Of a DNA stretch of 50,693 nt, positions 137 to 43,777 are shown piece by piece. Within the stretch, counting starts at the first letter, position 1, and every line of letters begins with the position of its first letter. A model generated the notes under the pieces. It was not told where the DNA came from, searched no databases, and saw only the letters and a list, made by a program, of their open reading frames with translations. A program made the translations under genes and the position numbers. This stretch comes from Prevotellaceae bacterium (GTDB lineage: Bacteria > Bacteroidota > Bacteroidia > Bacteroidales > UBA932), in assembly GCA_031275825.1 (NCBI GenBank), contig JAISOH010000059.1:1-50693 (forward strand), given 5' to 3'.

Positions 137-1357
137 TCATTCTATAAGCCTTACAAGGTCTTTTTTCATTTCTTCGTCTATATCCCGATACCGGGCAAAT
201 GCTTTACTGCTTTCTGCATGTCCGGTTAATGCTCCTACCAAATTAGGGTCTTTAACCTGTTTGTATATATTGCCTATGAATGTTCTGCGGGCAATGTGAG
301 AACTTGCAATTTCATTCAAGGGTTTTTGTTCGGTTTTGCGCGTGCGCGGATTAATTATTGTAATTTGCCGTGTAATGCCTGCAATGGTGAATATTTTTTT
401 TAATGCTTCGTTGTATTTGACGTCAGATATGAACGGTAATAATTTATTGCTGCCATAATCTTTATATTTGTCTAAAATTCGCATTGCTACTTTATTTAAT
501 GGCACTCTCACTGTTTTTACATGTTCATCTATCGTTTTGCGAGGTATATATTCAATAGCCCCATCTATCAGATTATCTTTTGTGAAATTTATAAGGTCGC
601 TTACCCTGCAACCTGTACAGCAATGGAATATAAATATATCCCTCTGTATTTCAAGATGCGGAAAATTGCTAAAATCGCATTCATATATTTTATTTCGTTC
701 TTCAATAGTCAAATAGTATGGAGTGCCGTACAGGTCAGGAGGTATTGAGAATTTTTCAAACGGATTATTTTTGATATATTCATTCTCGAGAAGCCACCTG
801 AAAAATGTCCTCATTCTTTTCAATATTCCGTTTTTTGTGTTATGTCCTCTTTCTCCATTATCAATAAACATAAAAAAATCTTTAACAAATTCTACGCTGA
901 TATTACGTATGTCTATCTTTAATCTGTTTGCAGTTTCAAATTCTGTCATAAGTTTACACAATCCTCTAAATTGCCTTTCTCTCATGATTTTATATTGTTT
1001 TTTTGAAAGAAAAACATTGAACAAATCCTGTATTTGTTCTGTACGCTCGTGCGATTTGTTAAGCCGTCTGTTTATTTCTGCCGTTAGCAGTTCGGATGTT
1101 GGCTGCGGGAGCGACAAGTAAGATTGCAGTACTGTTGTTTTGCGCTCAAAAATTGCAGCATTTAAGCCAATGCGTTCCTGTGTTGCAATGTAAGCGTAAC
1201 GGGAACTTATGCCCTGCTCTTTTTTACTCCACGCCTTTGTCTTGATTTCGATTTCAGAGGTATAATAAAGTTTTTGTTTGCCTCTGCCCTGCGAAACTTC
1301 AAATCTTACTTTTGTCGTTTCTTTTTTCGATTTAATAAAAGCCGTTACCGTTGCCAT
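137..1357 (-). CDS. tyrosine site-specific recombinase (phage-integrase family)
   Basis: 406-aa ORF. The C-terminal catalytic region has HIARRTF (H-x-x-R), LTGH and a terminal ARY tyrosine. Its start lies about 165 bp from the 3' end of tRNA-Arg. Confidence 0.9.
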   Translation of the reverse strand: MATVTAFIKSKKETTKVRFEVSQGRGKQKLYYTSEIEIKTKAWSKKEQGISSRYAYIATQERIGLNAAIFERKTTVLQSYLSLPQPTSELLTAEINRRLNKSHERTEQIQDLFNVFLSKKQYKIMRERQFRGLCKLMTEFETANRLKIDIRNISVEFVKDFFMFIDNGERGHNTKNGILKRMRTFFRWLLENEYIKNNPFEKFSIPPDLYGTPYYLTIEERNKIYECDFSNFPHLEIQRDIFIFHCCTGCRVSDLINFTKDNLIDGAIEYIPRKTIDEHVKTVRVPLNKVAMRILDKYKDYGSNKLLPFISDVKYNEALKKIFTIAGITRQITIINPRTRKTEQKPLNEIASSHIARRTFIGNIYKQVKDPNLVGALTGHAESSKAFARYRDIDEEMKKDLVRLIE

Positions 1358-1522
1358 TTTTTAATGCAAAGTTAAAAAACTTTCCGAACATTTTCCGAAC
1401 ATAATTAAAAATAATTGAAACTTATTAAAAACAATTAAAAGTGAAGATACTTAAAAACGCCTGAAAAACAAGTAATTAGTTTTAATTAATTTTATTTGGT
1501 TTTAGTTGATTTTATAAAAAAG

Positions 1523-1594
1523 TAGTCTCGGCGGGATTCGAACCCACATCAAAAGAACCGGAATCTTTCATTCTATCCATTGAACTACGAGACC
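1523..1594 (-). tRNA. tRNA-Arg (anticodon CCG)
   Basis: The reverse complement reads GGTCTCG TA GTTC AATGGATA GAAT G AAAGA TTCCGGT TCTTT TGAT GTGGG TTCGAAT CCCGC CGAGACT A. This is a 72-nt cloverleaf with a TTCGAAT T-loop and an anticodon loop TT-CCG-GT. Folded by eye. Confidence 0.85.
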
Positions 1595-4310: not shown

Positions 4311-6167
4311 TTATTCGTTAAATAAATTACCTGTATCTGATTGTTTGATATAACTGTTTTTTGCGACATCGTTTATTTTTTTCTGTATATGAACAACATC
4401 GAAAAAACGGCAAGTTTTTGATACTTTGCATACTTCGCAATCAAAACACACGGGAAACTCATGATATTGAAAAATTTTATCAGGGTCGGATACATCTGCC
4501 ATAACTTCGTTTGCAATATTATCTCCGTACATCCGACCTAAGATATTTTCAATTTCGCTGCATGAATAATTTTTGACATGTTTAAGATAAACATAATCGG
4601 ATATGGCAAAATAATAAGAATATGTTTCGTTTTTGTCCAATAAAAATTCATCCAAATGCTGTTTTGCCTTATCATACTGATTTGAAAAATAAAAAAGTTT
4701 GAATAACAGCAGATTTTCATCAATATTTTGTATATCTTCGTCATCATTATATAAAACATAATCGCATAAGTAGTTTGATGTTTTTTCATGCATACCGACA
4801 TTTGTAACGTGTTCAATTGCATTGGCAAGCGCAAGCGTTTCATGTTTGGTTATTTTTCCAATATGTTTCATATTTGAAAGCGCTCTGAAATCATAGGTAT
4901 GGAACAATTCATAACGGCGATGATATTTAGTTGTCTGGCTAATGCCCGGAATAATAATATAATACGCAGGAAATCCCAATATGGAATTGTTTCTTATGTA
5001 AACGTTATATCCCATTTTTTGTATCAATTCCATGCTGTATTGAATATCTTTTTGATTTGATAATCCAAGTTCAGGATTAAATCCTGTAAATTTGTATGAT
5101 GATGCAGTATGCAAAATAGACCTGTGCCAAAATCCGGTACTGTTTTTAATTATTTTGTTAAAATTTATATCAATGGCAACATCGGACAATATATCGCCTT
5201 CCCAACAGAATTTTAACGGTAATCCTCTGAAATGCTGTCCTTGATAGGCTTCTGTTACACATCTTTCCAGTGCAATATGAGGAACAAAATCAGACCCAAG
5301 TTTAAAATTATATAACAAATTTTGTTTATCTGTAAAAATTACTCCGATTACAGGTATTCCTTTTCCTAAAGAACAGTCTTTTACAATTATTTCATATCCG
5401 GTCTTTTGTTTTATATAATTAATTTTCTCATAAGCATTTGTTCCTTTGAATGTTTCTAATGGAACAGTCGGCGGCGTAAGTTGGTTGTAATATATTTCTG
5501 AAGCAGCATATCGTTCAAATATTTCACAAATACTCTGCAAAATCGCTTCTTCTTCGGTATTTCCTGCCGCCATACCGTTTGAGCCTGTTGCGTATAAAAT
5601 AAGGCGAACAGGAATTAATATTTCCTTATTTTCTGATACGGAATAAGATGGTATCATTAAACTTTCGTTTATTTGCAGTTTATCAATAAAAAAAGTATGT
5701 AAATATGATTCATCTTCTATATTGTATAATTTCATTAATTCTTTGCCCCAATGTTCAATAATCTTGTCGATACTCCAAATTTCCTCTTTCGGGTCGTACA
5801 TAAAATCCAAAGAAGAATTGTTTTGTTTAAGTTTTTGTACGTACAAAGAGTTTTGCGGTAAAGTTTTAATAAAACTATCAGTGGAATAAGCAAGCCGGTG
5901 ATCGCTGAATAATATTCTGTTCTGAATTCTTTCCATAAATTCGGCATAACCGCTTGCCATTGAATATTCAAACGATATTCCTTTGCCATTAGTGCCTATG
6001 TCTAATTTATCCAGATTCCGATTACCTATTATGACACGACAGGAATACATTCCGTTTGTTTCTCGGTGTTGATCTTTTAACAATACGCCAATACCCGAAA
6101 GAATAGATTGAATATTACGTATTGTTTGCTCCGGTGCAGATTCTTTATATTTTTTATATTGTTTCAT
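4311..6167 (-). CDS. YcaO-domain protein, long E. coli-like architecture (module A)
   Basis: 618 aa. YcaO signatures are GTNGKGISFEYSMASGYAEFMERIQN and GSNGMAAGNTEEEAILQSICEIFERYA. The C-terminal half is helical and TPR-like. It ends in a CX2CX2CX5C motif (CFDCEVCKVSKTC). Confidence 0.88.
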   Translation of the reverse strand: MKQYKKYKESAPEQTIRNIQSILSGIGVLLKDQHRETNGMYSCRVIIGNRNLDKLDIGTNGKGISFEYSMASGYAEFMERIQNRILFSDHRLAYSTDSFIKTLPQNSLYVQKLKQNNSSLDFMYDPKEEIWSIDKIIEHWGKELMKLYNIEDESYLHTFFIDKLQINESLMIPSYSVSENKEILIPVRLILYATGSNGMAAGNTEEEAILQSICEIFERYAASEIYYNQLTPPTVPLETFKGTNAYEKINYIKQKTGYEIIVKDCSLGKGIPVIGVIFTDKQNLLYNFKLGSDFVPHIALERCVTEAYQGQHFRGLPLKFCWEGDILSDVAIDINFNKIIKNSTGFWHRSILHTASSYKFTGFNPELGLSNQKDIQYSMELIQKMGYNVYIRNNSILGFPAYYIIIPGISQTTKYHRRYELFHTYDFRALSNMKHIGKITKHETLALANAIEHVTNVGMHEKTSNYLCDYVLYNDDEDIQNIDENLLLFKLFYFSNQYDKAKQHLDEFLLDKNETYSYYFAISDYVYLKHVKNYSCSEIENILGRMYGDNIANEVMADVSDPDKIFQYHEFPVCFDCEVCKVSKTCRFFDVVHIQKKINDVAKNSYIKQSDTGNLFNE

Positions 6168-6281: not shown

Positions 6282-7377
6282 TTAATGTATTTTGTATGTA
6301 CATAAGTAGTAAAATATATCGAAACAATAAACAGATGGATTGTCAAATCCGTTTATTTCCGAAAATCTATGCATCAACAATCCGCCGCCACAAACATCTT
6401 TTACAATACAATTTCTACATTTTTTACATAAAACATTATCTTGATGAGCATTATAGAATTTATAAAAGATATCTTCATTAATTATATCGTCTAATTCGTT
6501 GTACATGATATTATATTTAGCCAGCAGCAAATTATTTCCACAAATTCGTAATGTATCAACTACGTCAATATCGCCATTAGTTCTTATATCAATGACTCCA
6601 TTAAAATTTCTGCCAAATAATTCTCCTCCTGCATAATTTTCATTCCCTAAAAATAAATTGATGGCATCCTCAAACATTCGTATTCTTGGTTTGTTTTTGT
6701 TTCTATCAAAATACCATAAATCAAATAATTTTATTAACCATAACCCAAGTTTATTTGCATTCATATCAAACTTGTCGTAAGTCGAATCAGGAGGTAGGCA
6801 ATCCATATATGACACAGATATATCGTTAAAAAAAGTATAATACTCATCAGTGTCAATATTGGTATTGATAACAGACAAAATGGCCGGTATTATATATTTT
6901 TTTGAAATGTTGTAACCATCCATAATGCTATTATATGCAGCATGTTCGTTGGTTTTAAAAATTCTATTATTTGATGCTGTTTTATTACCATCAATGCTTA
7001 TACATACTTGTATATTGTGCATTTTAAATAAATTACAGAACATTTCTGTTAACAATGTTCCATTTGTTTGAATAGAATAATGTAATTTTGCAGATGTAAC
7101 AATTTTCTCTGCCAATTTAATAAATTCCTCGTAAAATGATTTTCCAACTATAAGCGGTTCGCCTCCGTGAAATATAATGAGGAATGAGTTTAACTTATTT
7201 TTTTTACAATATTGCTCTATCTTTTGTAATATTTTTTTTTACTATATCAAAATCCATAATATCAGGTTCATTCAGGTATGATTTATCTGTTTTGTTATAA
7301 ACATAACAATATTTGCATGAAAGATTGCATATGTTTGTTACTTTTAATATTATGCATTTAATAATCATTATAAACAT
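6282..7377 (-). pseudogene. radical SAM / SPASM-domain peptide maturase, split by a frameshift in an A9 run (module A)
   Basis: The N-terminal piece runs from ATG 7377 (or 7368) and reads MFIMIIKCIILKVTNICNLSCKYCYVYNK..., with CX3CX2C. It stops at 7204-7206. The downstream frame (track ORF 6282-7115) continues ...KILQKIEQYCKKNKLNSFLIIFHGGEPL...IQTNGTLL... and ends with the SPASM-like CKKCRNCIVKDVCGGG. Both frames are open only across the T9 run at 7232-7240, which is A9 on the coding strand. Removing one A joins them. Confidence 0.8.
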
Positions 7378-7398
7378 TATTTAATTACAATAAAAAAG

Positions 7399-7446
7399 TA
7401 CCTGAAATACTTTTAGATCATATTACCACATACAATATTTCAGGTA
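7399..7446 (-). promoter_or_regulatory. stem-loop between precursor A and its maturase gene
   Basis: Perfect 11-bp inverted repeat: TACCTGAAATA (7399-7409) pairs with TATTTCAGGTA (7436-7446), with a 26-nt loop. Confidence 0.5.
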
Positions 7447-7683: not shown

Positions 7684-7820
7684 TCAGCTAATTTTCAGGC
7701 ATAGCCTTTCTCCTTTTATTTGACAAAGGTACAAACATGTTTTTTGAAAAAAATACTTTTGGGCGTAAATAAAATTTCACACTTTGTATAATTTTATTTC
7801 ACACTTTCGGGTAGGCGTTT
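7684..7820 (-). promoter_or_regulatory. conserved promoter cassette, copy 1
   Basis: Shared with 18658-18744 and 23092-23230. Elements are the direct repeats ATTTCACACT at 7774-7783 and 7796-7805 (22-bp period), the palindrome AAACATGTTT at 7733-7742, and TACCTTTG on the minus strand (7724-7731), which matches the Bacteroides -7 consensus TAnnTTTG. The conserved 5' leader reads GGCTATGCCTGAAAATTAGC. Confidence 0.7.
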
Positions 7821-7825
7821 GATGT

Positions 7826-7885
7826 TTAGCCGTTTATGTCGTAATAATCATAATAGTCAGATAATTCAGATGTGTTAGAATACAT
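7826..7885 (-). pseudogene. 3' remnant of an XRE-type HTH gene (paralog of 23236-23505)
   Basis: It translates to MYSNTSELSDYYDYYDING*. The C-terminus of the intact gene is ...SEFSDLYAYYDIFN*. It sits in the same position relative to the promoter cassette as the intact gene does. Confidence 0.5.
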
Positions 7886-7959: not shown

Positions 7960-10626
7960 TTAAATTTTCATATTGAATTTCAACATAATATATCCGGGAA
8001 TACGGTAAAGATAATTTTCTACGATAACATTTTCTATATGTGAAATTTCGCGCCAGCGTTTATTCGACAAATGCAACATATCGCTGCCTGTTAATTCAAT
8101 TCCGTATTTTTCGTTGAATTTGTATCGCACATTTGCATCCCAGTAATAAAAATTTTGTGTAATCTTGCCTGCATTATTATTTTCATAACCAACAGATGTT
8201 GATATATAAAAACGGTTTTTAGCGAACGATATTTTTCCCGTATAACGTTGGATATCCTGCTTGTTCGAAACTGTTGTTTTGTAATATGACTGTGAAAAAT
8301 TTGCATAAACAGATCCATTGAAACCCTGTTTGTAACCGCTTTCTATTCCGATATTTGCCGATGGCGAATAACTGCGATATTTTATTTTGTTACTATTTAT
8401 AAAATATAGATATTTATTTTGCTGATAATTTATTTCTATTCTAAAATTTATCGGAGCAAATAAAAATTTTTTGGAAAAAGATGACATCGCAAAAAATGTT
8501 TGTTTTTCAGGACTTGTAACTGTTTTGACTTCATTTGTCAATCCTGCACGGAAATAATCTTTTGTTGTTGTATTTTTGTTGGTTTCGTACGATATATTTG
8601 TTATCAACTGTAAATTTCTGAATTGATTTACGATTATTAATAATGATGATATTCTGTGTTTTACGTAATATAAATCTGTAACATTGTTGCCGTACATATA
8701 GTTGCTGTAATCATTTAGATATATGCTCGAAATCAAATTTCCTGCTGATAATGAACTGATATTTTTGCTATAAGAAATTGTTAATCGCTGCGAGTGTTTC
8801 GGTACAAATGAAAATTCAATCTGCGGTTCGAAAATAATTTTATTGTTATCTGCAAGTATGTTTACATTATCTTTGGATGTGATATTTCGCAGAGCGCCTC
8901 CAATTTTAAATCCAAAAACTCCTTTGTTTTTTATAAATTTTAAGTTTAAACTTTGGTCAAAGCGATTAAAAAAAATATTATTTGATAAATTATCATCCGC
9001 AAGTAATTTTTTATTGCTGTTTGGAATCTTATCATAAATACAGGATGTAAATACATTATACATATAACCTGCTCCAAGCGTTATACGCATAAAATACTGT
9101 TCGTTAAACCTGTGTAAATATGAAAAATCCAATGTTGTATTAACATTTTTTGTTGCACTTTCCTGTAATCCGTAAAACATATTACCTGTTTCGGTAAAAG
9201 GTATCGGCAATAAAAGCGAATCTGTTCGAAAGTCGTAATATGCAGGACTCATTTTATATGAAAAACTTGCATTTGCCGTTAAAACATTTTCATTTATTTT
9301 TTTCAGCATGGTAAAAGCATGACTTGTATTCAACGATTTTTTACTGTTTTTGTCAAATACATAAAAATCAATATTTTTTACATCCGTATTGAATTTTACG
9401 AAAGTGTCATCAAATTTTCCCTGATAACTGTAATTTGTTTTTTCTGAAAAGTCGTATGCTAATTTCAAAAATACACTGCCGATGATATTGTATTTTTTTG
9501 TTTTTTCGAAATTAAAATAATTTTCATTCGTATCAAAGAAAGTATATCTTTTTTCCTTATCGGCTCTCAATTTCGATAAATTCAAAAGTCCATAAGAATT
9601 TATTTTAATTTTTTTGTTTGGCTGTGACGATAAATTTACGGAAGTTAAGGCGTTGGTATTACTGTAAACATTAGAAATATCAGGTTGCAGTAGCGCTGTT
9701 TCCGTTTCGTCAAACTCAAACGAAAATACATCGGTATTGTTAATAAATTCATTTAATCCGCCCTTCATTTTCAGATAATCCATAAAATCCAAAAGCGATT
9801 CGCCTGTATTATTTGCCGAAAGCGTTACAGAACTCATAATTTTAGGGAATAAACTTATAATATTGTTTTTCGTAGAATATTTATCTTTTACGCCTCCTGA
9901 AACACTTAAATTTCCGGTAATTTTTCCCAAAAAACTGTCGTTTACTTTCACATTTACAGCAGTTTTTTCATGCGATTGAAATCCTCTTAAAATACTGTAT
10001 TCGCTGTAATTGGTAACAACTTCCACTTTGTCGGCAATGTTTGCAGGCAAATTTTGCGTTGCTATTTGCGTATTGCCCGAAAACAGATCTCTTCCTTCGA
10101 TAAGAACTGTTTCAACATTTTTTCCCTGTGCTTTTATTCTTCCCGATTTATCGACTTCAATTCCCGGAAGTTTGTTCATCATGTCGCCGAGAGTAATTTC
10201 CGAACCATCGGTATATGCACGCGGGTCATAACGTATCGTGTCGCCGATAATTTCAAAACCTTTATAGTTTGCCGTTATTTTGGCTTCATTAATCTTCTCG
10301 GCTTCTTCTTTCAAAATAAAATCTGTTTCCAAATCATTGTTGCCGAAAAACCATACATTTGTACTTTCTGCCGAATATCCTATGCATCTTGCTTCTACGC
10401 TGTATTGTCCGTTTTGTATTCCGTTTATCTGATATTTACCTGCTTCGTCGCTTGATGTATATTTTACAACCGCGGAATCTTTTGTTGTACGTAATGTGAT
10501 TGTGGCAAATGAAACAGGATTATTGCTGTCATTGATTATTTTGCCTTTCAGTTTGTTTGTTTGAGCAAAAATCACGTTTGAAGAGTAACAACAAAATATC
10601 AATATAACGACAATAAATTTTTTCAT
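7960..10626 (-). CDS. outer-membrane beta-barrel family protein (CarboxypepD_reg-like N-domain); module B
   Basis: 888 aa. It has a signal peptide and an N-terminal GKIINDSNNPVSFATITL...DEAGKY segment. A plug-like LPGIEVDKSG...IEGRD stretch is followed by a long beta-strand-rich C-terminal region. Confidence 0.8.
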   Translation of the reverse strand: MKKFIVVILIFCCYSSNVIFAQTNKLKGKIINDSNNPVSFATITLRTTKDSAVVKYTSSDEAGKYQINGIQNGQYSVEARCIGYSAESTNVWFFGNNDLETDFILKEEAEKINEAKITANYKGFEIIGDTIRYDPRAYTDGSEITLGDMMNKLPGIEVDKSGRIKAQGKNVETVLIEGRDLFSGNTQIATQNLPANIADKVEVVTNYSEYSILRGFQSHEKTAVNVKVNDSFLGKITGNLSVSGGVKDKYSTKNNIISLFPKIMSSVTLSANNTGESLLDFMDYLKMKGGLNEFINNTDVFSFEFDETETALLQPDISNVYSNTNALTSVNLSSQPNKKIKINSYGLLNLSKLRADKEKRYTFFDTNENYFNFEKTKKYNIIGSVFLKLAYDFSEKTNYSYQGKFDDTFVKFNTDVKNIDFYVFDKNSKKSLNTSHAFTMLKKINENVLTANASFSYKMSPAYYDFRTDSLLLPIPFTETGNMFYGLQESATKNVNTTLDFSYLHRFNEQYFMRITLGAGYMYNVFTSCIYDKIPNSNKKLLADDNLSNNIFFNRFDQSLNLKFIKNKGVFGFKIGGALRNITSKDNVNILADNNKIIFEPQIEFSFVPKHSQRLTISYSKNISSLSAGNLISSIYLNDYSNYMYGNNVTDLYYVKHRISSLLIIVNQFRNLQLITNISYETNKNTTTKDYFRAGLTNEVKTVTSPEKQTFFAMSSFSKKFLFAPINFRIEINYQQNKYLYFINSNKIKYRSYSPSANIGIESGYKQGFNGSVYANFSQSYYKTTVSNKQDIQRYTGKISFAKNRFYISTSVGYENNNAGKITQNFYYWDANVRYKFNEKYGIELTGSDMLHLSNKRWREISHIENVIVENYLYRIPGYIMLKFNMKI

Positions 10627-13770: not shown

Positions 13771-14682
13771 TTATTTTTCTTTTATAAAATTTAAGTAAAT
13801 AGTTTCAACATCGTTGTTCATTTTCAATATATCTGTAATATTTACATTTTCATGCTCAAGATAATTCAATACTGTTGATAATCGGATTTGTTCAGTATTT
13901 ACATATATGCAATTACTTTTAAATTCAACGCCTGCAAATTCCGTATTTTGCGTTAAACTACAATCAAACGTTATCTTGTATATGTTATTGTTTATGTTTT
14001 TCATATCAATATCATGAATTTTACCTGATTTTATGAATAAATGCTTTGATGCTATCGTCCGGATAAACTCCAAATCATGCGAAGTAGCCAGTATCAATTT
14101 GTTTTTCACAAATTCACCATGTGAAAAAAACTCTTTCAATTGATTTTTTGATTCTACATCCAAACCTAATGTTGGTTCATCTAAAAATACAACAGGAGTA
14201 TCAACGACCAAAGTACAAATTAAGGCGGTTTTTTGCTGCATGCCTCGCGATAAGGTTTCAACAAGACAGTCTTTTTTGTCATATATGTATAAAGCTTTAA
14301 GCAAATCGCTTGCAAAATTTTTGATTTTCGAATATTTTATGCCGCGCAAACCCGCAAAAAAACGAATATTCTCCAATACGGTTAATTTCCAATAGATATT
14401 TCTGTTACCTTCAAGTACGGCGCTGTAATCTTTATGTGTCAATTTTCGTTTTTTTCCATTTTCTTCAAGCGTAATATTACCATCAAATGATATTAGATTT
14501 GTGCATGATTTTATAAATGTGGTTTTACCAGAGCCGTTCTGTCCGAGCAAACCAACAATCTGGTTATCGCTTATCTCAACAGAAATATCATCAAGCGCTT
14601 TAACTGCACCTTTTTTGTGTGGGTAATATTTTGTTAAATTTTTTATAGAAATGGTAGTCATAAATTTTGATTTATTTAACAT
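13771..14682 (-). CDS. ABC transporter ATP-binding protein
   Basis: Walker A GQNGSGKTT, signature LSRGMQQK and Walker B VVFLDEPT. The start may be the internal MTTISIKNL. Confidence 0.9.
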   Translation of the reverse strand: MLNKSKFMTTISIKNLTKYYPHKKGAVKALDDISVEISDNQIVGLLGQNGSGKTTFIKSCTNLISFDGNITLEENGKKRKLTHKDYSAVLEGNRNIYWKLTVLENIRFFAGLRGIKYSKIKNFASDLLKALYIYDKKDCLVETLSRGMQQKTALICTLVVDTPVVFLDEPTLGLDVESKNQLKEFFSHGEFVKNKLILATSHDLEFIRTIASKHLFIKSGKIHDIDMKNINNNIYKITFDCSLTQNTEFAGVEFKSNCIYVNTEQIRLSTVLNYLEHENVNITDILKMNNDVETIYLNFIKEK

Positions 14683-14708
14683 GCAAAATTAATAAAAAAC
14701 AGTTATAT

Positions 14709-15854
14709 TCATATTATAAATTGATTAATTTTTAAAATTCTATCCTGTATTTTTGGATGAGTACTGACGCAAAAAGTATATAATGGATGTTTATTGATTT
14801 TAATTAACGAATCATCTTCGATTTTATTTAACAGTGAAATAATCGCATTTTTGTCAATTAAATTAGCGGCATATTTATCTGCGTTATATTCTATTTGACG
14901 CGATATTATGTTTCTCACAACATATAATATCACAATTATAGGTAAAATGTACAGATGAAAATAAATCAAATTAATTATTAAATAAGGCGTTACAAAAATA
15001 TGCTTCATAAACAGTATAAACAATCCAATGAAAATTATTATATAGAAAATATTTTCTATAAGCTGCTTAATATTATCATTATTTTTGTAATGTGCTAATT
15101 CGTGTGCATATAATGCACAAATTTCTTCATTTGAAAAATTACTATTCATTAATCTACTAGAAAATATAACTTTCTTATTATCTCCATGCCCACAAATGCA
15201 AGCGTTTGCAGTCTTACTTTTTAATTCTGACACAAATATTTTTGTCATAACTTTGGCATGTCTGGCAATATCCTCCAATGATTTTTTTAACATTTCATCA
15301 TCTATTTCTTTCGCTTTAATGCCAATTGTTTGTATTTTGTCTTGAAAAATGGTTGTTAGAATTATAAATGCAGACAAAAAAGACAGAAGCAATATGCTTG
15401 AATTATCGTACATATATACAATAATGCAAAAAAATGCAATGCTAAAAGCAATTATAATACCAGATCTTAACGTGTAATCTATTATAAATTTATGCAAATT
15501 TCGTTTTATTTTATATATTTGTGCATCAAATATAATATTTAATATGTTTTTTATTAGCATATATAATCTAATTACAAAAACAATCAAAAACCACAATAAA
15601 ATATTTATTAATAACGAATTATATTTATGTTGAGTAATATTTATTAATAATTTATTATTTATTATAATATAAATAACTACTATAATGGTAAATTTAAATA
15701 ACATTTTGATAAGATACAGACATGAAAATTTACATCGAAAATTTTTCAAATTTAATTGTTTTCCAGTATAGAAATAATTAATAATGTCTGCTACTAAAAC
15801 TAATAATGAAATTATTACAAAATTTATTGTGCTTATCTCATATATTGCTTTCAT
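14709..15854 (-). CDS. M48-family (HtpX/Ste24-like) membrane zinc metallopeptidase
   Basis: 381 aa with multiple TM segments. It has HELAH (HEXXH), then NADKYAA and STHPKIQDRI downstream, as in M48 peptidases. Confidence 0.75.
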   Translation of the reverse strand: MKAIYEISTINFVIISLLVLVADIINYFYTGKQLNLKNFRCKFSCLYLIKMLFKFTIIVVIYIIINNKLLINITQHKYNSLLINILLWFLIVFVIRLYMLIKNILNIIFDAQIYKIKRNLHKFIIDYTLRSGIIIAFSIAFFCIIVYMYDNSSILLLSFLSAFIILTTIFQDKIQTIGIKAKEIDDEMLKKSLEDIARHAKVMTKIFVSELKSKTANACICGHGDNKKVIFSSRLMNSNFSNEEICALYAHELAHYKNNDNIKQLIENIFYIIIFIGLFILFMKHIFVTPYLIINLIYFHLYILPIIVILYVVRNIISRQIEYNADKYAANLIDKNAIISLLNKIEDDSLIKINKHPLYTFCVSTHPKIQDRILKINQFII

Positions 15855-15868
15855 ATTTTCTTATAAAA

Positions 15869-17704
15869 TTATAAAAATTCTTTAAAACAACAATCTTGCT
15901 GCATTTGTGTGTTTATCATATATTTATTTATCCGCTTGGATATTGTAAATTGATGAATAGTTAAACAGTCACTATATAATTTGCATTGTTCACAAGCAGG
16001 ACATTGGGGTAAATCAATATTTGCAAAAAAGGCATCTAAATTTTTAAATCCCTCTGAAATTTCATTAGCTATATTTTTTCCTAAAATTATATTAGCATCA
16101 ATTCCATCTCTTTTTGCTTCTAAAAATATCAGAATATTCTTGTAATAAGTATTTTCTACGTGATTTGTAAGTTGCATAAAGAATTTCATCCAATTAACAG
16201 CATTATGGATGTCATTTAACATGTATAAAAAGGCAACCATAAAATAAGCAATAGGTATGTGATACCAATAAGAATCATGCCTAAATGATAATTTTAATAA
16301 ATCTTTCATTTTTATAAAATCTGTATCCATACCCACATTTTGTATAATATTTGCTATTTTGCGTATTTTATATTGAGAAAGATTTTTACTTGGGAAAAAT
16401 AAATCTTCTATAGTATCAAAATCAACGTAAGAATTGAGAGACACATTATCAGTAGATGCATTTTTTCTTCCTATTGCCGAAATAGTTGGAATATAAATGT
16501 AAAAAGACGGAAAACCAAGGAAAGATACGTTACGCAAATATACATTATATCCATCAACTAAAAAATTATTTATTATCTTTTTAACTTCTTGGTTATATGA
16601 ATCGCCAGAAGAAAAAGTAGAACTATCGAATTCATAAGAATAATTTGTGCCGAATAGTGATATTGGAAATACTCCACTGCCATTCATAATAAACTTTCGT
16701 AATATCTTATCTCTTTGATGGATTGATTGTTCATCAGAATTAATAAAATAATCAAGTTCTTTTTGTGGCACATCTAATAGATTTTCGGCAAAAGTCTTTA
16801 TATCTTTATATCCTTGATAAATTTCGGTTAACGCTCTGCTTAATGCAATAGGAAAAGATGTATCTGACCCAACATTTAATTTATATTTTGTTTTTTCTTT
16901 GTTAATTATAATTACTCCTATTGCAGGTAGATGTTTACCTGCAGAAAAATCTTTAACAATAACATTATAATTTCCATCTTTCTCTATTTCTTTTATTAAC
17001 TTATATTCAGATGGATATTGCTTTATAAAATCAATAGCAATAGTTGGGGGTGTCAATTTTTCAAAATAAACTGTTGATGAGGCATATCGTTCATATAATT
17101 CACATAAACCTTGAAAAACTCCTTCTGATATTGTGTTTCCTGCTGCCATTCCATTTGAGCCTGTAAACATTAGCATAATGTTATATGGTAGATATATTAT
17201 GCTATTGTTCTTTACATCAAAAAACGGGACAGAAATTATTCCGTCATATCCATTCTTTCTGGCTTTATTAAAATAAATTTCTATTTCTTTTTCTGTAAGT
17301 CCATGTTTAAATACATCATCTAAAAATTCTTTAGGTAAATTTTTGAATTCATCTTTTGTCATTATTTTTTCATCCGGAAAAAAAACAAAACCAGTTTCTT
17401 TCTTAATTTGATCTAAAAACATTCTATTGAGAGATGCAGATCCACTCACAAAGCCATTTTGTAAACGTTCTATGAATTCTGCATAAGCACTTGCCAATGC
17501 ATATTGGCGTGTTCTTCCTTTACCGTTTGTTCCAAATTGTCCTCCTGCCGTATCTGCTTCTACTCTTACTGAAAATGTTCCTTCATACGGATTTCCCCAA
17601 TAACTTTCATAAACAAATATATCAAGATTTGCTAATATTGCTCGTATTTTATGAATTGTATTATTTGGAGTATCTTCTTTGTATTTTCTTTTAGTCATAA
17701 TCAT
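15869..17704 (-). CDS. YcaO-domain protein, long E. coli-like architecture (module B)
   Basis: 611 aa. YcaO signatures are GTNGKGRTRQYALASAYAEFIERLQN and GSNGMAAGNTISEGVFQGLCELYERYA. It has a C-terminal CPACEQCKLYSDC (CX2CX2CX5C). Confidence 0.88.
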   Translation of the reverse strand: MIMTKRKYKEDTPNNTIHKIRAILANLDIFVYESYWGNPYEGTFSVRVEADTAGGQFGTNGKGRTRQYALASAYAEFIERLQNGFVSGSASLNRMFLDQIKKETGFVFFPDEKIMTKDEFKNLPKEFLDDVFKHGLTEKEIEIYFNKARKNGYDGIISVPFFDVKNNSIIYLPYNIMLMFTGSNGMAAGNTISEGVFQGLCELYERYASSTVYFEKLTPPTIAIDFIKQYPSEYKLIKEIEKDGNYNVIVKDFSAGKHLPAIGVIIINKEKTKYKLNVGSDTSFPIALSRALTEIYQGYKDIKTFAENLLDVPQKELDYFINSDEQSIHQRDKILRKFIMNGSGVFPISLFGTNYSYEFDSSTFSSGDSYNQEVKKIINNFLVDGYNVYLRNVSFLGFPSFYIYIPTISAIGRKNASTDNVSLNSYVDFDTIEDLFFPSKNLSQYKIRKIANIIQNVGMDTDFIKMKDLLKLSFRHDSYWYHIPIAYFMVAFLYMLNDIHNAVNWMKFFMQLTNHVENTYYKNILIFLEAKRDGIDANIILGKNIANEISEGFKNLDAFFANIDLPQCPACEQCKLYSDCLTIHQFTISKRINKYMINTQMQQDCCFKEFL

Positions 17705-17734: not shown

Positions 17735-17762
17735 AAATAGGGTACAATATCGTACCCTATTT
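17735..17762 (-). terminator. hairpin plus T-run between the mini-ORFs and YcaO B (attenuator/terminator-like)
   Basis: AAATAGGGTAC (17735-17745) pairs with GTACCCTATTT (17752-17762) around a 6-nt loop. On the minus strand a T7 run follows it. Confidence 0.6.
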
Positions 17763-17773
17763 ATACTCTCAAC

Positions 17774-17890
17774 TTAGATTACAGATCTGTTTTGGAAATG
17801 AAAATAAGCCGGCGCAGCACTTGCTGCCATTAAAAGTAAGATAGGTACAGCAGCGACTTCATGTTCTTCTTCTTGTGTAAAATACTTCAT
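17774..17890 (-). CDS. mini-ORF B1 (38 aa), candidate precursor peptide or small membrane peptide
   Basis: Below the ORF-track cutoff. It reads MKYFTQEEEHEVAAVPILLLMAASAAPAYFHFQNRSVI and is a paralog of B2. Confidence 0.55.
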   Translation of the reverse strand: MKYFTQEEEHEVAAVPILLLMAASAAPAYFHFQNRSVI

Positions 17891-17945: not shown

Positions 17946-18059
17946 TTATATCAAACTACGATTTTCATGAAAAAGAAGGAATCGTAATAAGGTAGCTAAA
18001 ATTGGAGCTAAATTTAATTCTTCATTTGAAGAATCCTCATAATTTGTAAAATACTTCAT
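17946..18059 (-). CDS. mini-ORF B2 (37 aa), paralog of B1
   Basis: It reads MKYFTNYEDSSNEELNLAPILATLLRFLLFHENRSLI. With B1 it shares the MKYFT start, an acidic stretch, a hydrophobic centre and an FH-x-NRS-(V/L)-I end. Confidence 0.55.
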   Translation of the reverse strand: MKYFTNYEDSSNEELNLAPILATLLRFLLFHENRSLI

Positions 18060-18179
18060 AACTTTGAAATTTTAATTTATTAAACATTTTATTAATTTTA
18101 TAAAAGCAATTTTCATCGCTCTTATTGATAGCGAAGTAAGTAATTAAATCTTTACAATCTATCAGATGTGTTCAACTAT

Positions 18180-18231
18180 CTAATAAGTGACAGATTTGAA
18201 CTAATAAGTGATAGACTTTTACAAATAAGTG
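18180..18231 (-). promoter_or_regulatory. three direct repeats at an exact 21-bp period upstream of the mini-ORFs
   Basis: On the plus strand: CTAATAAGTG at 18180-18189, CTAATAAGTG at 18201-18210 and CAAATAAGTG at 18222-18231. They lie 120-170 bp upstream of the B2 ATG. Confidence 0.6.
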
Positions 18232-18235
18232 TTTT

Positions 18236-18585
18236 TTATATCAGTTCAACAAAATGTTTTTTGAACTCTATCCACTTTCTGTCAGATACTTTCAGTTTTA
18301 TATTATTTGTGAGTAATATTTCCTTTTTTCTATTGTTAACTTGCTGTATGTATCTGGCATTAACCAAAGTATTATGATGTATTCTAATGAAACCATAAGT
18401 TGCAAGTTCGTTTTCAAAAGATTTTAAAAGTTTTGAACAAGTAATCCTGTCTTCTTTATCAATATATATATATCGCACAGGTAACAATCAGATATTATAT
18501 ACGTTATATTTATTGCCATAAGTTGACGAGTAATGCCGCCTGTTGTAACAACAATAGATTTTGTATTTTGTAAATCATAGTTCAT
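18236..18585 (-). pseudogene. standalone LytTR-domain DNA-binding protein, frame broken at an (AT)6 tract
   Basis: The upstream frame from ATG 18585 reads MNYDLQNTKSIVVTTGGITRQLMAINITYIISDCYLCDIYI.... The track ORF (18236-18487) reads ...YIDKEDRITCSKLLKSFENELATYGFIRIHHNTLVNARYIQQV..., which is LytTR-like (FxRxHxS/TxxVN). Deleting one AT from (AT)6 at 18462-18473 fuses them into a 115-aa protein. Confidence 0.7.
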
Positions 18586-18657
18586 TTTTACTTATTTTTA
18601 CAATTAAAAATCGTAAAGTCTTATTTGTTTGTTCGCAGTTACAGAAAAAACTTTTTT

Positions 18658-18744
18658 TACAAAGGTAAAAACATGTTTTTCAAAAAAACACTTTTTGGCG
18701 TAAATAAAATTTCACACTGTGTATAATTTTATTTCACACTTTCG
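18658..18744 (-). promoter_or_regulatory. conserved promoter cassette, copy 2 (upstream of the LytTR gene)
   Basis: ATTTCACACT at 18709-18718 and 18731-18740, palindrome at 18669-18678, and the -7 box CAAAGGTA (plus strand) at 18660-18667. Confidence 0.7.
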
Positions 18745-18992
18745 GCATAACCGCTTGCCATTGAATATTCTATGCTCGTTCCTTTGCCATTAGTGCCTAT
18801 ATCAAATTCCATTAAGTTATCATTAGCGATTACAATTCTACAAGTAAAATAATCACCATCTTGTATAAATTTTTCGGATACAAATATACCAAGTTCACTC
18901 AGTATAGAACGAATTTTGTTTATAGTAATTACCGGCTTTTCTTCTTTATACGGTTTTAACATCTTATTCATACCATTATATTTTAAATCCAT
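18729..18992 (-). pseudogene. YcaO N-terminal stub (about 85 codons), truncated at the junction with promoter cassette copy 2
   Basis: It reads ...INKIRSILSELGIF...DIGTNGKGTSIEYSMASGYAE and then runs into cassette sequence (SVK*). The DNA around 18743-18810 closely matches YcaO A at 5940-6000. Confidence 0.8.
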
Positions 18993-23091: not shown

Positions 23092-23230
23092 GCTAATTTT
23101 CAGGCATAGCCTTTTTCCTTTTTTATTTTTTCACAAAGGTACAAACATGTTTTTCAAAAAAAATGCTTTTTGGCGTAAATAAAATTTCACACTATGTATA
23201 ATTTTATTTCACACTTTTACGTAAGCGTTT
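23092..23230 (-). promoter_or_regulatory. conserved promoter cassette, copy 3
   Basis: ATTTCACACT at 23184-23193 and 23206-23215, palindrome at 23143-23152, and the -7 box at 23134-23141. Confidence 0.7.
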
Positions 23231-23235
23231 ATTAT

Positions 23236-23505
23236 TCAGTTGAATATATCATAATAAGCATACAAGTCAGAAAATTCGGAATCTTCGGGAAATTTTTCTT
23301 TTTCCTTAAAATGTTTAAAGAAATTATAATCCAATACCTTTGATATTTGCAGCAGCAATGCAGTATCAATGCTCGAACGCTTAAAAATATCATAAACATT
23401 TTCGCGTGTTTTATTGATTAGCCTTGCAAATTCGGTAACAGTAAGAGAACTTTGATTTACCTTTTGCCGTATAAGGTTGCCTATGTGAACTTCATTTTTT
23501 TTCAT
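23236..23505 (-). CDS. small XRE-type helix-turn-helix protein
   Basis: 89 aa. LTVTEFARLINKTRENVYDIFKRSSID is an HTH-like stretch. The gene heads the whole minus-strand locus. Confidence 0.7.
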   Translation of the reverse strand: MKKNEVHIGNLIRQKVNQSSLTVTEFARLINKTRENVYDIFKRSSIDTALLLQISKVLDYNFFKHFKEKEKFPEDSEFSDLYAYYDIFN

Positions 23506-24010: not shown

Positions 24011-24084
24011 GGCGCGGTAGCTCAGCTGGTTAGAGCGCATGATTCATAATCATGAGGTCTCCGGTTCAATCCCGGATCGCGCTA
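24011..24084 (+). tRNA. tRNA with CAT anticodon (elongator Met, or Ile2 if lysidinylated)
   Basis: It folds as GGCGCGG TA GCTC AGCTGGTTA GAGC G CATGA TTCATAA TCATG AGGTC TCCGG TTCAATC CCGGA TCGCGCT A. It is not initiator-like: there is no C1-A72 mismatch and no GGG/CCC anticodon stem. Confidence 0.85.
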
Positions 24085-24103
24085 CTGCTCAATTCCCAAC
24101 TAC

Positions 24104-38348: not shown

Positions 38349-39080
38349 ATGGCAACAATTTTACACAAAATCAAGGCGTATTTGTACAGCAATGCGCTGA
38401 CCGACAACCCTAACGACTATATTGCGAGGGTAAGTTCGGAACGCTCGCTGAGCGTAAATGACATTTGCGAATCGGCAATAACGCGCGGCGGCGCTGATAT
38501 TTCGGCTGCGGCTATGGAACACGCCGTAAACCTGTGGCTTAAAGAAATGGGTTACCGTCTTTGCGACGGATTTTCGATTAATACGGGCTGGTTTACGGCG
38601 AGCACCCACATCAAAGGCGTGTTTGACAGTCCAAACGAACATTTTGACCCCGAAAAACACACTGTCCTGTTTGAGTTTCAGCAGGGCTCGCTTCTGCGCA
38701 GGGAACTTGAATCAATAAGCGTGGACATACTCGGAGTTGCCGATTCGGCTCTGCGCATTTTGCAGGTTACGGATGTCAAAACAGGCTCGGTGAACGACAT
38801 CCTCACGCCCGACCGCAACCTCAAAATCAGCGGTAACAAAATCAAAATTGCGGGCGACAATGCGGCTAACGGCGTGTACTTTGTAAACCAAACCACGCAG
38901 GAACGCACTGCCGTAGATGCTTCGGACATCGTAACAAACAACCCTTCGGAGTTGATAATTGTGATTCCCGCGCTGACGGCGGGAACGTATTCGCTGGAGA
39001 TTGCAACGCAGTATGCGGTAGGCGCCTTACTGAAAGAGCCAAGAACGGCAATCTTCGACAAACCTCTGACGGTACAGTGA
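38349..39080 (+). CDS. Bacteroidota HU-like DNA-binding N-domain plus Ig-like (DUF4469-type) C-domain protein
   Basis: 243 aa. I recall the N-terminus MATILHKIKAYLYSNALTDNPNDYIARVSSERSLSVNDICESAITRGGADISAAAMEHAVNL from this family. The C-terminal part LKISGNKIKIAGDNAANGVYFVNQTT...PSELIIVIPALTAGTYSLEI fits the Ig-like domain. GC is clearly higher than in neighbouring genes. Confidence 0.65.
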   Translation: MATILHKIKAYLYSNALTDNPNDYIARVSSERSLSVNDICESAITRGGADISAAAMEHAVNLWLKEMGYRLCDGFSINTGWFTASTHIKGVFDSPNEHFDPEKHTVLFEFQQGSLLRRELESISVDILGVADSALRILQVTDVKTGSVNDILTPDRNLKISGNKIKIAGDNAANGVYFVNQTTQERTAVDASDIVTNNPSELIIVIPALTAGTYSLEIATQYAVGALLKEPRTAIFDKPLTVQ

Positions 39081-39083
39081 TTA

Positions 39084-39198
39084 ACAGTCAAAGACCTTTT
39101 GTCCGTACAGTCAAAGACCTTTTGACAGCACAGCCAAAGACCTTTTGACAGCACAGCCAAAGACCTTTTGACAGCACAGCCAAAGATCTTTTGACTGA
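39084..39198 (+). repeat. 5 x 23-bp tandem repeat
   Basis: The unit is ACAG(C/T)CAAAGACCTTTTGACAGC. Units start at 39084, 39107, 39130, 39153 and 39176. The array begins 4 nt after the stop of 38349-39080. Confidence 0.9.
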
Positions 39199-39224: not shown

Positions 39225-39286
39225 AACGGCGGAACCCGAAAAGCCGGAACAGAGTAGGGATTTTTTACAGAACGTATTTTTTTAAT
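39225..39286 (+). repeat. 62-bp intergenic element, copy 1
   Basis: AACGGCGGAACCCGAAAAGCCGGAACAGAGTAGGGATTTTTTACAGAACGTATTTTTTTAAT. It is repeated at 43716-43777 with one indel and one mismatch. Confidence 0.85.
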
Positions 39287-39335
39287 TGTAAAAACAGTGA
39301 AATCTTTAGTTTGTAATTTTTTAATATGGAATTTT

Positions 39336-43715: not shown

Positions 43716-43777
43716 AACGGCGGAACCCGAAAAGCCGGAACAGAGTAGGGATTTTTTAACAGAAGTATTTTTTTAAT
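43716..43777 (+). repeat. 62-bp intergenic element, copy 2
   Basis: See 39225-39286. It starts 5 nt after the stop of the LRR gene. Confidence 0.85.

What the first reader, a model, noticed from the sequence alone, without database searches (positions are those of the whole stretch)
18180..18231. Three direct repeats at an exact 21-bp period between the LytTR gene and the mini-ORFs
On the transcribed strand the sequence is CACTTATTTG-N11-CACTTATTAG-N11-CACTTATTAG. On the plus strand these are C(T/A)AATAAGTG at 18180, 18201 and 18222. They lie 120-170 bp upstream of the B2 start and abut the LytTR stop codon.

Exact two-turn phasing of a 10-mer three times is unlikely by chance, even in AT-rich DNA. 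It again matches LytTR-type operator geometry. The repeat differs from the cassette repeat (AAGTGTGAAAT), although both contain AAGTG/CACTT in opposite orientations. Module B may therefore be under related but distinct control.
Basis: partly seen in the sequence, partly recalled or inferred. Interest (0 to 1): 0.65.

Follow-up and report, generated by a model that had tools for sequence, protein, structure and literature searches.

The report
LytTR operator upstream of RiPP peptides
The three evenly spaced repeats are real and are most likely the binding site of the small LytTR regulator encoded just upstream, a regulator-plus-operator unit also found in front of peptide-antibiotic-like genes in related termite-gut Bacteroidales; it is a well-known type of switch in a new lineage, and in this genome the regulator gene is broken.

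Summary
CACTTATT(T/A)G occurs three times on the minus strand at an exact 21-bp period (18222-18231, 18201-18210, 18180-18189). The first copy starts 4 nt after the LytTR stop codon. The copies lie 121-172 nt upstream of the first mini-ORF. Chance expectation is about 0.02 such triples per window.

Comparative evidence supports the interpretation. Thirteen other loci (11 non-redundant) encode a 113-142 aa stand-alone LytTR protein 30-70% identical to the repaired window protein. All carry the same three in-phase boxes immediately after the gene; the first box is degenerate in one locus. The consensus is nCCACTTATTAG. Boxes are conserved and spacers are not. A -7-type Bacteroidota promoter box sits about 50 nt after the third box. 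The 9-mer ACCACTTAT with a 12-bp spacer is identical to published operators of stand-alone LytTR regulators such as BrsR.

The cargo downstream varies: GG-leader precursors with radical-SAM genes elsewhere, and YcaO-type mini-ORFs here.

In this window the LytTR gene has a +2 frameshift in an (AT)6 run. The -7 box carries a T-to-C change. No terminator separates an upstream promoter from the mini-ORFs. The operator may therefore be orphaned here.

This is a new member of a known kind. Protein binding and promoter activity remain untested.

The parts
18222..18233 (-). LytTR box R1 (AACACTTATTTG), promoter-distal. It begins 2 nt after the LytTR stop codon.
   Evidence: Searches give the sequence. 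It is in register with R1 of 13 related loci.
18201..18212 (-). LytTR box R2 (ATCACTTATTAG), exactly 21 bp from R1.
   Evidence: (family D2).
18180..18191 (-). LytTR box R3 (GTCACTTATTAG), exactly 21 bp from R2. This is the best-conserved box in the family.
18159..18179 (-). Conserved extension ATAGTTGA and the position of a degenerate fourth box. Relatives have ACCAC, ACCAT or nACAC exactly 21 bp after R3. The window has only AACAC, shifted by 2 nt (18172 down to 18168).
   Evidence: The interpretation as a fourth site is inferred.
18132..18139 (-). -7-type promoter box TTACTTCG, 50 nt after the start of R3. Closest relatives have TTACTTTG, L022 has TTGCTTTG and L023 has TAATTTTG at the same offset. 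The window carries T-to-C at the otherwise invariant TTTG.
   Evidence: The box is homologous to the consensus TACCTTTG box of the cassette promoter. The consensus TAnnTTTG is from PMC7366714. No perfect TAnnTTTG lies on this strand between 18060 and 18235.
18236..18585 (-). Stand-alone LytTR regulator gene, broken by a +2 frameshift in an (AT)6 run at 18462-18473. Removing one AT unit gives a 115-aa protein that aligns end to end with intact homologs.
   Evidence: An independent Logan contig of the source run has the same sequence.
18652..18745 (-). Copy 2 of the 'cassette' promoter. It holds AGTGTGAAAT twice at a 22-bp period, a 16-bp palindrome, and the -7 box TACCTTTG at 18660-18667. It is placed to drive the LytTR gene, and transcripts could read through into the mini-ORFs.
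17946..18059 (-). Mini-ORF 1 (37 aa, MKYFTNYEDSS...FHENRSLI). It belongs to a peptide family encoded upstream of ~615-aa YcaO genes.
   Evidence: Peptides ending NR(P/A)LI (L011, L015) or TRPVL (L013) lie upstream of YcaO homologs in L011, L013 and L015.
17774..17890 (-). Mini-ORF 2 (38 aa, MKYFTQEEE...FHFQNRSVI), a paralog of mini-ORF 1.
   Evidence: (family D1).
17735..17762 (-). Intrinsic terminator hairpin followed by a T-run after the mini-ORFs. It is the only terminator-like site between 17600 and 18850.
13771..17704 (-). Downstream biosynthetic genes: YcaO (15869-17704), M48 peptidase (14709-15854) and ABC ATPase (13771-14682). The same gene order is found next to such peptides elsewhere.

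Best explanation
The three repeats are the operator of the stand-alone LytTR regulator encoded immediately upstream.

Each 12-mer, nCCACTTATT(A/T)G, would bind one LytTR domain. The 21-bp (two-turn) spacing places the bound proteins on one face of the DNA. The array ends at a fixed distance from a weak Bacteroidota -7 box that has no -33 TTTG motif. Relatives also have a degenerate fourth site in phase. The bound regulator most likely recruits RNA polymerase and activates transcription of the peptide genes downstream.

Gene, operator and promoter together form a conserved portable unit. In related termite-gut Bacteroidales it precedes different cargo: GG-leader precursors with radical-SAM maturases, or membrane proteins. 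In this window it precedes two YcaO-type mini-ORFs.

In this genome the unit looks disabled or switchable. The LytTR gene has a +2 frameshift in an (AT)6 run, and the -7 box has a T-to-C change. Expression of the mini-ORFs may now depend on read-through from the cassette promoter upstream of the LytTR gene, or on a LytTR paralog elsewhere in the genome.

Shown: the repeats, their conservation and geometry, and the LytTR identity of the neighbouring gene. Inferred: binding, activation and the position of the transcription start.
For: 1. The repeats are exact and non-random.
2. The neighbouring gene is a LytTR-domain protein once repaired. The fold model of homolog P0001 (pLDDT 74) gives LytTR structures as its 13 best PDB hits.
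3. All 13 other loci of this LytTR subfamily (30-70% identity; L001-L004, L007, L009, L018, L019, L022-L025, L027) have three boxes at an exact 21-bp period right after the gene on the same strand.
4. In 36 units from 12 non-redundant loci, information content is 1.31 bits per position in box positions 2-12 and 0.28 in the spacers. Mean identity between loci is 77% in boxes and 50% in spacers.
5. The Gx481 and Gx485 loci changed CCACTT to CCG(G/T)TT in all three boxes together.
6. Phased box pairs lie directly after this subfamily's LytTR gene in 190 kb of loci, apart from one isolated hit elsewhere in L023 (position 1045). They are absent from YcaO loci without it and from more distant LytTR response regulators. 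In the window there is a single such site.
7. A -7 box lies 49-50 nt after the start of R3 in most of the relatives (a perfect TAATTTTG in L023). In L001 the box and the 5'UTR after it line up with the cassette's consensus TACCTTTG box and its 5'UTR.
8. Published operators of stand-alone LytTR regulators are ACCACTTAT-12 bp-ACCGCTTAT (BrsR), ACCACTTAC-12 bp-ACCACTTAC and similar (PMC6193735). The LytTR consensus [TA][AC][CA]GTTN[AG][TG] has 12-13 bp spacers upstream of the promoter (PMC5600425).
Against: - No binding, footprint, transcription start or expression data exist. No RNA run holds the region.
- The regulator gene is frameshifted in this window, and no other LytTR gene is in the window.
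- The -7 box is imperfect (TTACTTCG), and no perfect TAnnTTTG lies between the boxes and the mini-ORF.
- No terminator separates the cassette promoter from the mini-ORFs, so read-through alone could express them.
- If the -7 assignment is right, R3 ends about 20 bp upstream of the -33 region. That is farther than the 4-11 bp typical of Firmicute LytTR promoters. The fourth in-phase site that would bridge this gap is poorly preserved in the window.
- YcaO-type peptide genes in other genomes have ordinary promoters without these boxes.
Confidence: 0.75

Rival explanations
1. The boxes bind the LytTR protein, but it represses rather than activates. It would block RNA polymerase at the downstream promoter or act as a roadblock to read-through from its own gene.
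For: - The LytTR gene has no terminator, so transcripts enter the box region.
- In relatives the fourth degenerate site overlaps the -33 region.
- From my own knowledge (not checked here), some LytTR regulators such as PlnD repress from the same type of repeats.
Against: - The core promoters are mostly weak (TTACTTTG, TTGCTTTG, TATCTTGG) and lack a -33 TTTG, which fits dependence on an activator.
- The boxes lie upstream of the -7 box, not over it.
- Characterised stand-alone LytTR regulators with this box sequence are activators (PMC6193735).
Confidence: 0.12
2. In this particular genome the operator is a non-functional relic. The regulator is a pseudogene, the -7 box is mutated, and the mini-ORFs are transcribed only by read-through from the cassette promoter at about 18660.
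For: - The frameshift lies in the (AT)6 run and is reproduced in an independent contig.
- The invariant TTTG of the -7 box carries T-to-C.
- There is no terminator between 18660 and 17762.
- Other genes of the island are also broken: the radical-SAM gene near 7220 and a truncated YcaO at 18729-18992.
- In locus L010 the LytTR gene is truncated.
Against: - The three boxes are intact. R2 and R3 are identical, and the boxes are 61-91% identical to those of the relatives.
- The distance from the boxes to the -7 box is preserved.
- A paralogous LytTR protein elsewhere in the genome could use them. Two different paralogs (L001 and L023) come from the same metagenome sample.
- The frameshift could revert by slippage.
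Confidence: 0.3
3. The repeats are not a LytTR site. They could be a neutral 21-bp tandem duplication, or the binding site of another protein such as integrase arm sites, iterons or the HTH_3 protein.
For: - Units 1 and 2 are 81% identical over the full 21 bp in the window, as a recent duplication would be.
- An integrase gene (137-1357) and an HTH_3 gene (23236-23505) are present in the window.
Against: - The boxes are conserved in 13 other loci while the spacers diverge.
- They always accompany the LytTR gene, not an integrase or HTH_3 gene.
- The HTH_3 gene travels with a different repeat and palindrome.
- No RNA structure or Rfam family covers the site.
Confidence: 0.04

Closest known systems
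Operators of stand-alone LytTR regulators (LytTR Regulatory Systems: HdrR and BrsR of Streptococcus mutans and orthologs; PMC6193735)
   Same: - The regulator is a LytTR domain alone, without a receiver domain.
- Repeats are 9 bp with a 12-bp spacer (21-bp period).
- The repeat sequence is essentially identical: BrsR has ACCACTTAT-12 bp-ACCGCTTAT, and the relatives here have ACCACTTAT.
- The repeats lie upstream of the promoter.
- The systems control bacteriocin or peptide genes.
   Different: - There are three full boxes (plus a degenerate fourth) instead of two.
- The boxes lie downstream of the regulator gene, so there is no positive autoregulation through them.
- No membrane-inhibitor gene is co-transcribed.
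- The host is Bacteroidales, with a -7 TAnnTTTG-type promoter rather than -35/-10.
- The proximal full box is about 20 bp, not 4-11 bp, from the -33 region.
AgrA P2/P3, and ComE, BlpR and PlnC promoters of Firmicutes (two-component LytTR response regulators; PMC5600425)
   Same: - Imperfect direct repeats with 12-13 bp spacers lie upstream of the core promoter.
- The core is C(A/C)(G/C)TT.
- These systems regulate secreted-peptide and bacteriocin loci.
   Different: - The regulator here has no receiver domain and no histidine kinase nearby.
- The box core has C where the AgrA consensus has G (CACTT against CAGTT), although some relatives carry CCAGTT or CCGGTT.
- There are three boxes.
Regulators reported in Bacteroidales RiPP gene clusters (PMC10352776)
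   Same: The cargo is the same: GG-motif precursors with radical-SAM and/or YcaO enzymes, transporters and outer-membrane proteins.
   Different: That survey reports HTH and histidine-kinase/response-regulator genes. It never mentions LytTR (0 occurrences of the word), and I found no operator description in the passages I read.

Membership tests
LytTR-family operator (direct repeats bound by LytTR domains) | Imperfect direct repeats of about 9 bp separated by 12-13 bp (period 21-22 bp) | tested here: met
   The period is exactly 21 bp three times in the window. The same holds in 13 related loci. The definition is taken from PMC5600425 and PMC6193735.
LytTR-family operator (direct repeats bound by LytTR domains) | Repeat sequence conforms to the family consensus ([TA][AC][CA]GTTN[AG][TG], or the ACCACTTAT type) | tested here: met
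   The family consensus here is nCCACTTAT, which equals the BrsR and C. botulinum repeats in PMC6193735. The window boxes are (A/T)CACTTAT, one position away. Variants CCAGTT and CCGGTT in L002, L003 and L004 match the AgrA-type core.
LytTR-family operator (direct repeats bound by LytTR domains) | A LytTR-domain protein is available as cognate binder | tested here: met
   The adjacent gene matches Pfam PF04397 at 50 bits against a cut-off of 22.6. The fold of its homolog matches AgrA and ComE LytTR domains. The window copy is frameshifted.
LytTR-family operator (direct repeats bound by LytTR domains) | Position immediately upstream of a core promoter | tested here: inconclusive
   A conserved -7-type box lies 49-50 nt after R3 in most of the relatives, but no transcription start is mapped. 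The window box is mutated (TTACTTCG). The full boxes end about 20 bp from the -33 region.
LytTR-family operator (direct repeats bound by LytTR domains) | Sequence-specific binding by the protein, and repeat-dependent transcription | not testable with these tools
   This needs EMSA or footprinting and reporter assays. No RNA data are available.
LytTR Regulatory System (LRS, HdrRM/BrsRM type) | Stand-alone LytTR regulator without a receiver domain | tested here: met
   The proteins are 113-142 aa and contain only the LytTR domain.
LytTR Regulatory System (LRS, HdrRM/BrsRM type) | Membrane inhibitor protein co-transcribed with the regulator | tested here: not met
   In the window and in the loci whose downstream DNA was available, the regulator gene is followed directly by the boxes and then the cargo. 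L022 and L023 have a 201-225 aa protein after the boxes that looks like a membrane protein from its translated start. Its role is unknown.
LytTR Regulatory System (LRS, HdrRM/BrsRM type) | Positive autoregulation through repeats upstream of the regulator's own operon | tested here: not met
   No phased boxes lie upstream of any of the LytTR genes. All are downstream.
Two-component LytTR response regulators (AgrA, ComE, PlnC type) | N-terminal receiver domain and a partner histidine kinase | tested here: not met
   There is no Response_reg hit in the protein and no kinase in the neighbourhood.

The most novel reading that the evidence does not exclude
The LytTR gene, its three or four phased boxes and a weak -7 promoter form a portable 'plug-in switch'. 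Termite-gut Bacteroidales have repeatedly recombined it in front of unrelated peptide or RiPP cargo. In this window it sits behind a second, HTH_3-associated promoter cassette, which would make a two-tier cascade. The (AT)6 run inside the LytTR gene could act as a slippage-based on/off switch for the YcaO-type peptides.
Probability: 0.15. Interest if true: 0.55.

Novelty: new member of a known kind. Interest (0 to 1): 0.4.

Why it matters
I found no description of how RiPP or bacteriocin-like clusters are regulated by LytTR proteins in Bacteroidales; a 2023 mining survey of Bacteroidales RiPP clusters never mentions LytTR. This work gives a concrete, testable unit: a 115-aa protein, a 12-bp box and a fixed promoter distance. 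The same DNA word is used by stand-alone LytTR regulators of Firmicutes, here wired to a different promoter type (-7 TAnnTTTG). The unit could be used to predict or switch on silent peptide clusters from uncultured termite-gut bacteria. It also shows that promoter-plus-regulator modules have been swapped between peptide families in this island. The mechanism itself is the familiar LytTR direct-repeat operator, so the surprise for a specialist is modest.

Tried and rejected
- **RNA evidence:** no RNA run holds the region.
- **DNA reads:** DNA runs are available only as contigs, so read-level heterogeneity of the (AT)n run could not be examined. The contig reproduces the frameshift.
- **Sigma-70 promoter scan:** no enrichment over shuffles, and it is not appropriate for Bacteroidota.
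- **RNA element at the repeats:** no Rfam hit, and the fold z-score is only -1.69. Rejected.
- **Sequence search of the PDB with the family profile:** only a marginal LytTR hit (3d6w, E = 0.15). The fold search was needed.
- **NCBIfam:** no model matches the mini-ORFs or the GG-leader precursor.
- **Leader upstream of the relatives' LytTR genes:** a conserved hairpin plus T-run, but no compensatory changes. Left unexplained.
- **Other LytTR genes in the window:** none found among the proteins scanned.
- **Chance or pure tandem duplication:** rejected by simulation and by cross-locus conservation.
- **More distant LytTR proteins:** response regulators L017, L020 and L021, and the 35%-identical stand-alone L026, lack the boxes. 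The motif is therefore specific to this subfamily.

Full report
**Observation**

The + strand reads CTAATAAGTG at 18180 and 18201 and CAAATAAGTG at 18222. On the minus strand, which is the coding strand of all neighbouring genes, this is CACTTATTTG-N11-CACTTATTAG-N11-CACTTATTAG. These are the only exact matches to the motif in the window. A blind scan for any 10-mer present three times at a constant period of 12-40 bp recovers only this site and an unrelated 23-bp tandem array. Markov simulations give 0.023 such triples per 50.7 kb over all periods, and none in 300 runs at periods 20-22. The first repeat starts 4 nt after the LytTR stop codon (18236-18238). The repeats lie 121-172 nt upstream of the mini-ORF start at 18059.

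**Local anatomy (all features on the minus strand)**

Reading from high to low coordinates:
- An 87-aa N-terminal fragment of a YcaO gene (18729-18992). It is truncated at a copy of a ~100-bp promoter 'cassette'.
- Cassette copy 2 (18652-18745). It holds AGTGTGAAAT twice at a 22-bp period, a 16-bp palindrome, and a consensus -7 box TACCTTTG at 18660-18667.
- A LytTR gene split into 53-aa and 83-aa ORFs (18236-18585).
- The three repeats.
- Two paralogous mini-ORFs (17946-18059 and 17774-17890).
- A strong terminator hairpin (17735-17762).
- YcaO, M48 peptidase and ABC transporter genes.

The LytTR reading frame is broken inside an (AT)6 run at 18462-18473. Deleting one AT unit gives a 115-aa protein. 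That protein aligns without gaps to intact 115-aa homologs and scores 50 bits against Pfam LytTR, whose cut-off is 22.6. An AlphaFold model of the closest homolog (pLDDT 74) has AgrA, ComE and a B. cereus LytTR domain as its 13 best PDB matches. No receiver domain, kinase or second LytTR gene was found among the window proteins scanned.

**Comparative evidence**

Protein searches found a small subfamily of stand-alone LytTR proteins of 113-142 aa. Those whose loci were examined are 30-70% identical to the repaired window protein. Most that carry a name are from Prevotellaceae or Bacteroidales MAGs. The window itself is held by a termite-gut metagenome run.

I retrieved 13 other loci (11 non-redundant): L001-L004, L007, L009, L018, L019, L022-L025 and L027. 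In every one, three boxes at an exact 21-bp period follow the LytTR gene on the same strand. They usually start 2-7 nt after the stop codon, and in L002, L018 and L027 they overlap the end of the ORF. In L027 the first box is degenerate.

- **Conservation.** The 36-unit consensus is nCCACTTATTAG. Information content is 1.31 bits per position in box positions 2-12 and 0.28 in the spacers. Mean pairwise identity between loci is 77% in boxes and 50% in spacers.
- **Concerted change.** The two Gx loci carry CCG(G/T)TT in all three boxes. A concerted change of this kind is expected if one protein reads all three.
- **Specificity.** Across 190 kb of fetched loci, phased box pairs lie directly after this subfamily's LytTR gene, apart from one isolated hit elsewhere in L023 that I read as chance. 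They are absent from YcaO loci that lack this LytTR, from LytTR response regulators, and from a 35%-identical stand-alone LytTR.

**Promoter geometry**

In most of the relatives a -7-type box starts 49-50 nt after the first C of box R3; I could not place one in L018 or L027. The closest six relatives have TTACTTTG or TTTCTTTG, L022 has TTGCTTTG, L023 has a perfect TAATTTTG, and L019 and L024 have TATCTT(A/G)G. The Bacteroidota consensus is TAnnTTTG at -7 and TTTG near -33 (PMC7366714). In L001 the box and the following 5'UTR (…GGCTATGCCTGAAAATTAGCC…) are homologous to the cassette promoter and its consensus TACCTTTG box. This supports reading it as the -7 element.

None of these promoters has a TTTG at the -33 position. 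Relatives instead carry a degenerate fourth half-box (ACCAC, ACCAT or nACAC) exactly 21 bp after R3, at about -45 to -34. A weak core promoter with phased upstream sites is the classic layout of an activator-dependent promoter. I did not test this, so activation is an inference.

In the window the -7 box reads TTACTTCG (18139 down to 18132), with T-to-C at an otherwise invariant position. The fourth half-box is present only as a shifted AACAC.

**Cargo**

Downstream of the unit, the relatives encode:
- GG-leader precursor peptides followed by radical-SAM/SPASM, S41 or C39-transporter genes (L001, L004, L007, L019, L024, L025, L027).
- Membrane or lipoproteins (L009, L022, L023).

The window's mini-ORFs are a different family. 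Homologs of the 611-aa YcaO (about 50% identity) are preceded in L011, L013 and L015 by 43-55 aa peptides ending NR(P/A)LI or TRPVL, and in L011 and L015 they are followed by an M48 peptidase gene, with ABC-transporter genes nearby in all three. Those loci have ordinary promoters and no LytTR boxes. The mini-ORFs are therefore real genes, and the LytTR-operator-promoter unit has been joined to a new cargo here.

**Comparison with known systems**

The LytTR consensus is a pair of imperfect 9-bp direct repeats, [TA][AC][CA]GTTN[AG][TG], separated by 12-13 bp upstream of the promoter (PMC5600425). Stand-alone LytTR regulators of the 'LytTR Regulatory Systems' use ACCACTTAT-12 bp-ACCGCTTAT (BrsR), ACCACTTAC-12 bp-ACCACTTAC and similar repeats (PMC6193735). 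The boxes found here are the same word with the same spacing.

Differences:
- There are three full boxes (plus a degenerate fourth) rather than two.
- The boxes lie downstream of the regulator gene, so there is no autoregulatory loop through them.
- There is no co-transcribed membrane inhibitor.
- The promoter is of the Bacteroidota type.

The site meets the defining features of a LytTR operator as far as sequence can test them. It does not meet two defining features of an LRS, nor those of a two-component LytTR system. A survey of Bacteroidales RiPP clusters lists HTH and kinase/response-regulator genes but never mentions LytTR.

**State in this genome**

The regulator is frameshifted, and an independent Logan contig of the source run shows the same sequence. 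The -7 box is mutated. No terminator lies between the cassette promoter and the mini-ORFs. Other genes of the island are also damaged: the module-A radical-SAM gene is frameshifted near 7220, and there is a truncated YcaO fragment.

The operator may therefore be an orphan here, with the mini-ORFs expressed by read-through. Alternatively, it may be served by a paralog elsewhere in the genome, or by reversion of the (AT)n run. No RNA data are available to decide.

**Verdict**

It is a new member of a known kind, with moderate interest.

Noticed in passing
window 7716-7870, 18652-18745, 23126-23280: There are three copies of a promoter 'cassette'. Each holds AGTGTGAAAT twice at a 22-bp period, which also forms a 16-bp palindrome AAATAAAATTTCACAC/GTGTATAATTTTATTT, followed by a consensus -7 box TACCTTTG. 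Copy 3 follows an intact HTH_3 (XRE-type) gene at 23236-23505. Copy 1 appears to retain only the 3' remnant of such a gene. The palindrome fits an XRE dimer better than a LytTR protein.
   Followed up: partly
window 18729-18992: An 87-aa ORF is the N-terminal fragment of a YcaO gene. Positions 18732-18808 are 83% identical in DNA to 5931-6007 of the intact YcaO at 4311-6167. The fragment is cut off exactly where cassette copy 2 begins, at the shared letters TTCGG. This suggests the LytTR/mini-ORF/YcaO module was recombined into an older cluster.
   Followed up: partly
window 6282-7400 (minus strand): The radical-SAM gene of the first peptide module is frameshifted near 7215-7225, next to poly-A runs. 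This is a second broken gene in the island.
   Followed up: partly
window ~7690-7715 and ~23095-23120; L001 ~10470-10490: A conserved 5'UTR element, GGCTATGCCTGAAAATTAGCC (a small hairpin), precedes GG-leader precursor genes. It occurs both behind the cassette promoter and behind the LytTR-box promoter of L001. Its function is unknown.
   Followed up: no
L001 9885-10000, L003, L004, L007, L010 (upstream of the LytTR genes): A leader of about 100 nt is conserved upstream of the relatives' LytTR genes. It has a hairpin GCTCGCGAG-AATCGTGAGC plus a T-run, then CATTTGTATGG. No compensatory changes were seen. In the window its distal part, including the hairpin, is absent and cassette copy 2 sequence lies there instead.
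   Followed up: partly
window 39084-39198: Five tandem copies of a 23-bp unit, ACAG(T/C)CAAAGACCTTTTGACAGC, lie immediately after an HU-DNA_bdg/DUF4469 gene (38349-39080). DUF805b RNA motifs (Rfam RF02914) are at 39226-39260 and 43717-43751.
   Followed up: no
window 39297-42214: A 78-bp periodicity in the DNA corresponds to RHS-repeat proteins split over three consecutive ORFs. An LRR protein follows at 42338-43711.
   Followed up: no
window 137-1594 and 24011-24085: A tyrosine integrase gene (137-1357) lies next to tRNA-Arg (1522-1594), and tRNA-Met is at 24011-24085. The peptide-cluster island lies between the two tRNA genes and may be a mobile island.
   Followed up: no
L010 3427-3519; run X2 contig at window 18542: In one related MAG the LytTR gene is truncated after 31 codons. 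In a second termite-gut sample a contig shares the cassette promoter and the first 44 nt of the LytTR gene, then diverges. The 5' end of this gene appears to be a recurrent rearrangement point.
   Followed up: no
L011 4796-4933, L013 4542-4673, L015 4744-4911; window mini-ORFs: A family of 37-55 aa peptides, mostly alanine-rich or hydrophobic in the middle, ends NR(P/A/S)(L/V)I (TRPVL in L013). It is encoded upstream of ~615-aa YcaO genes, with M48-peptidase and/or ABC-transporter genes nearby, in diverse bacteria. No NCBIfam model matches it.
   Followed up: partly
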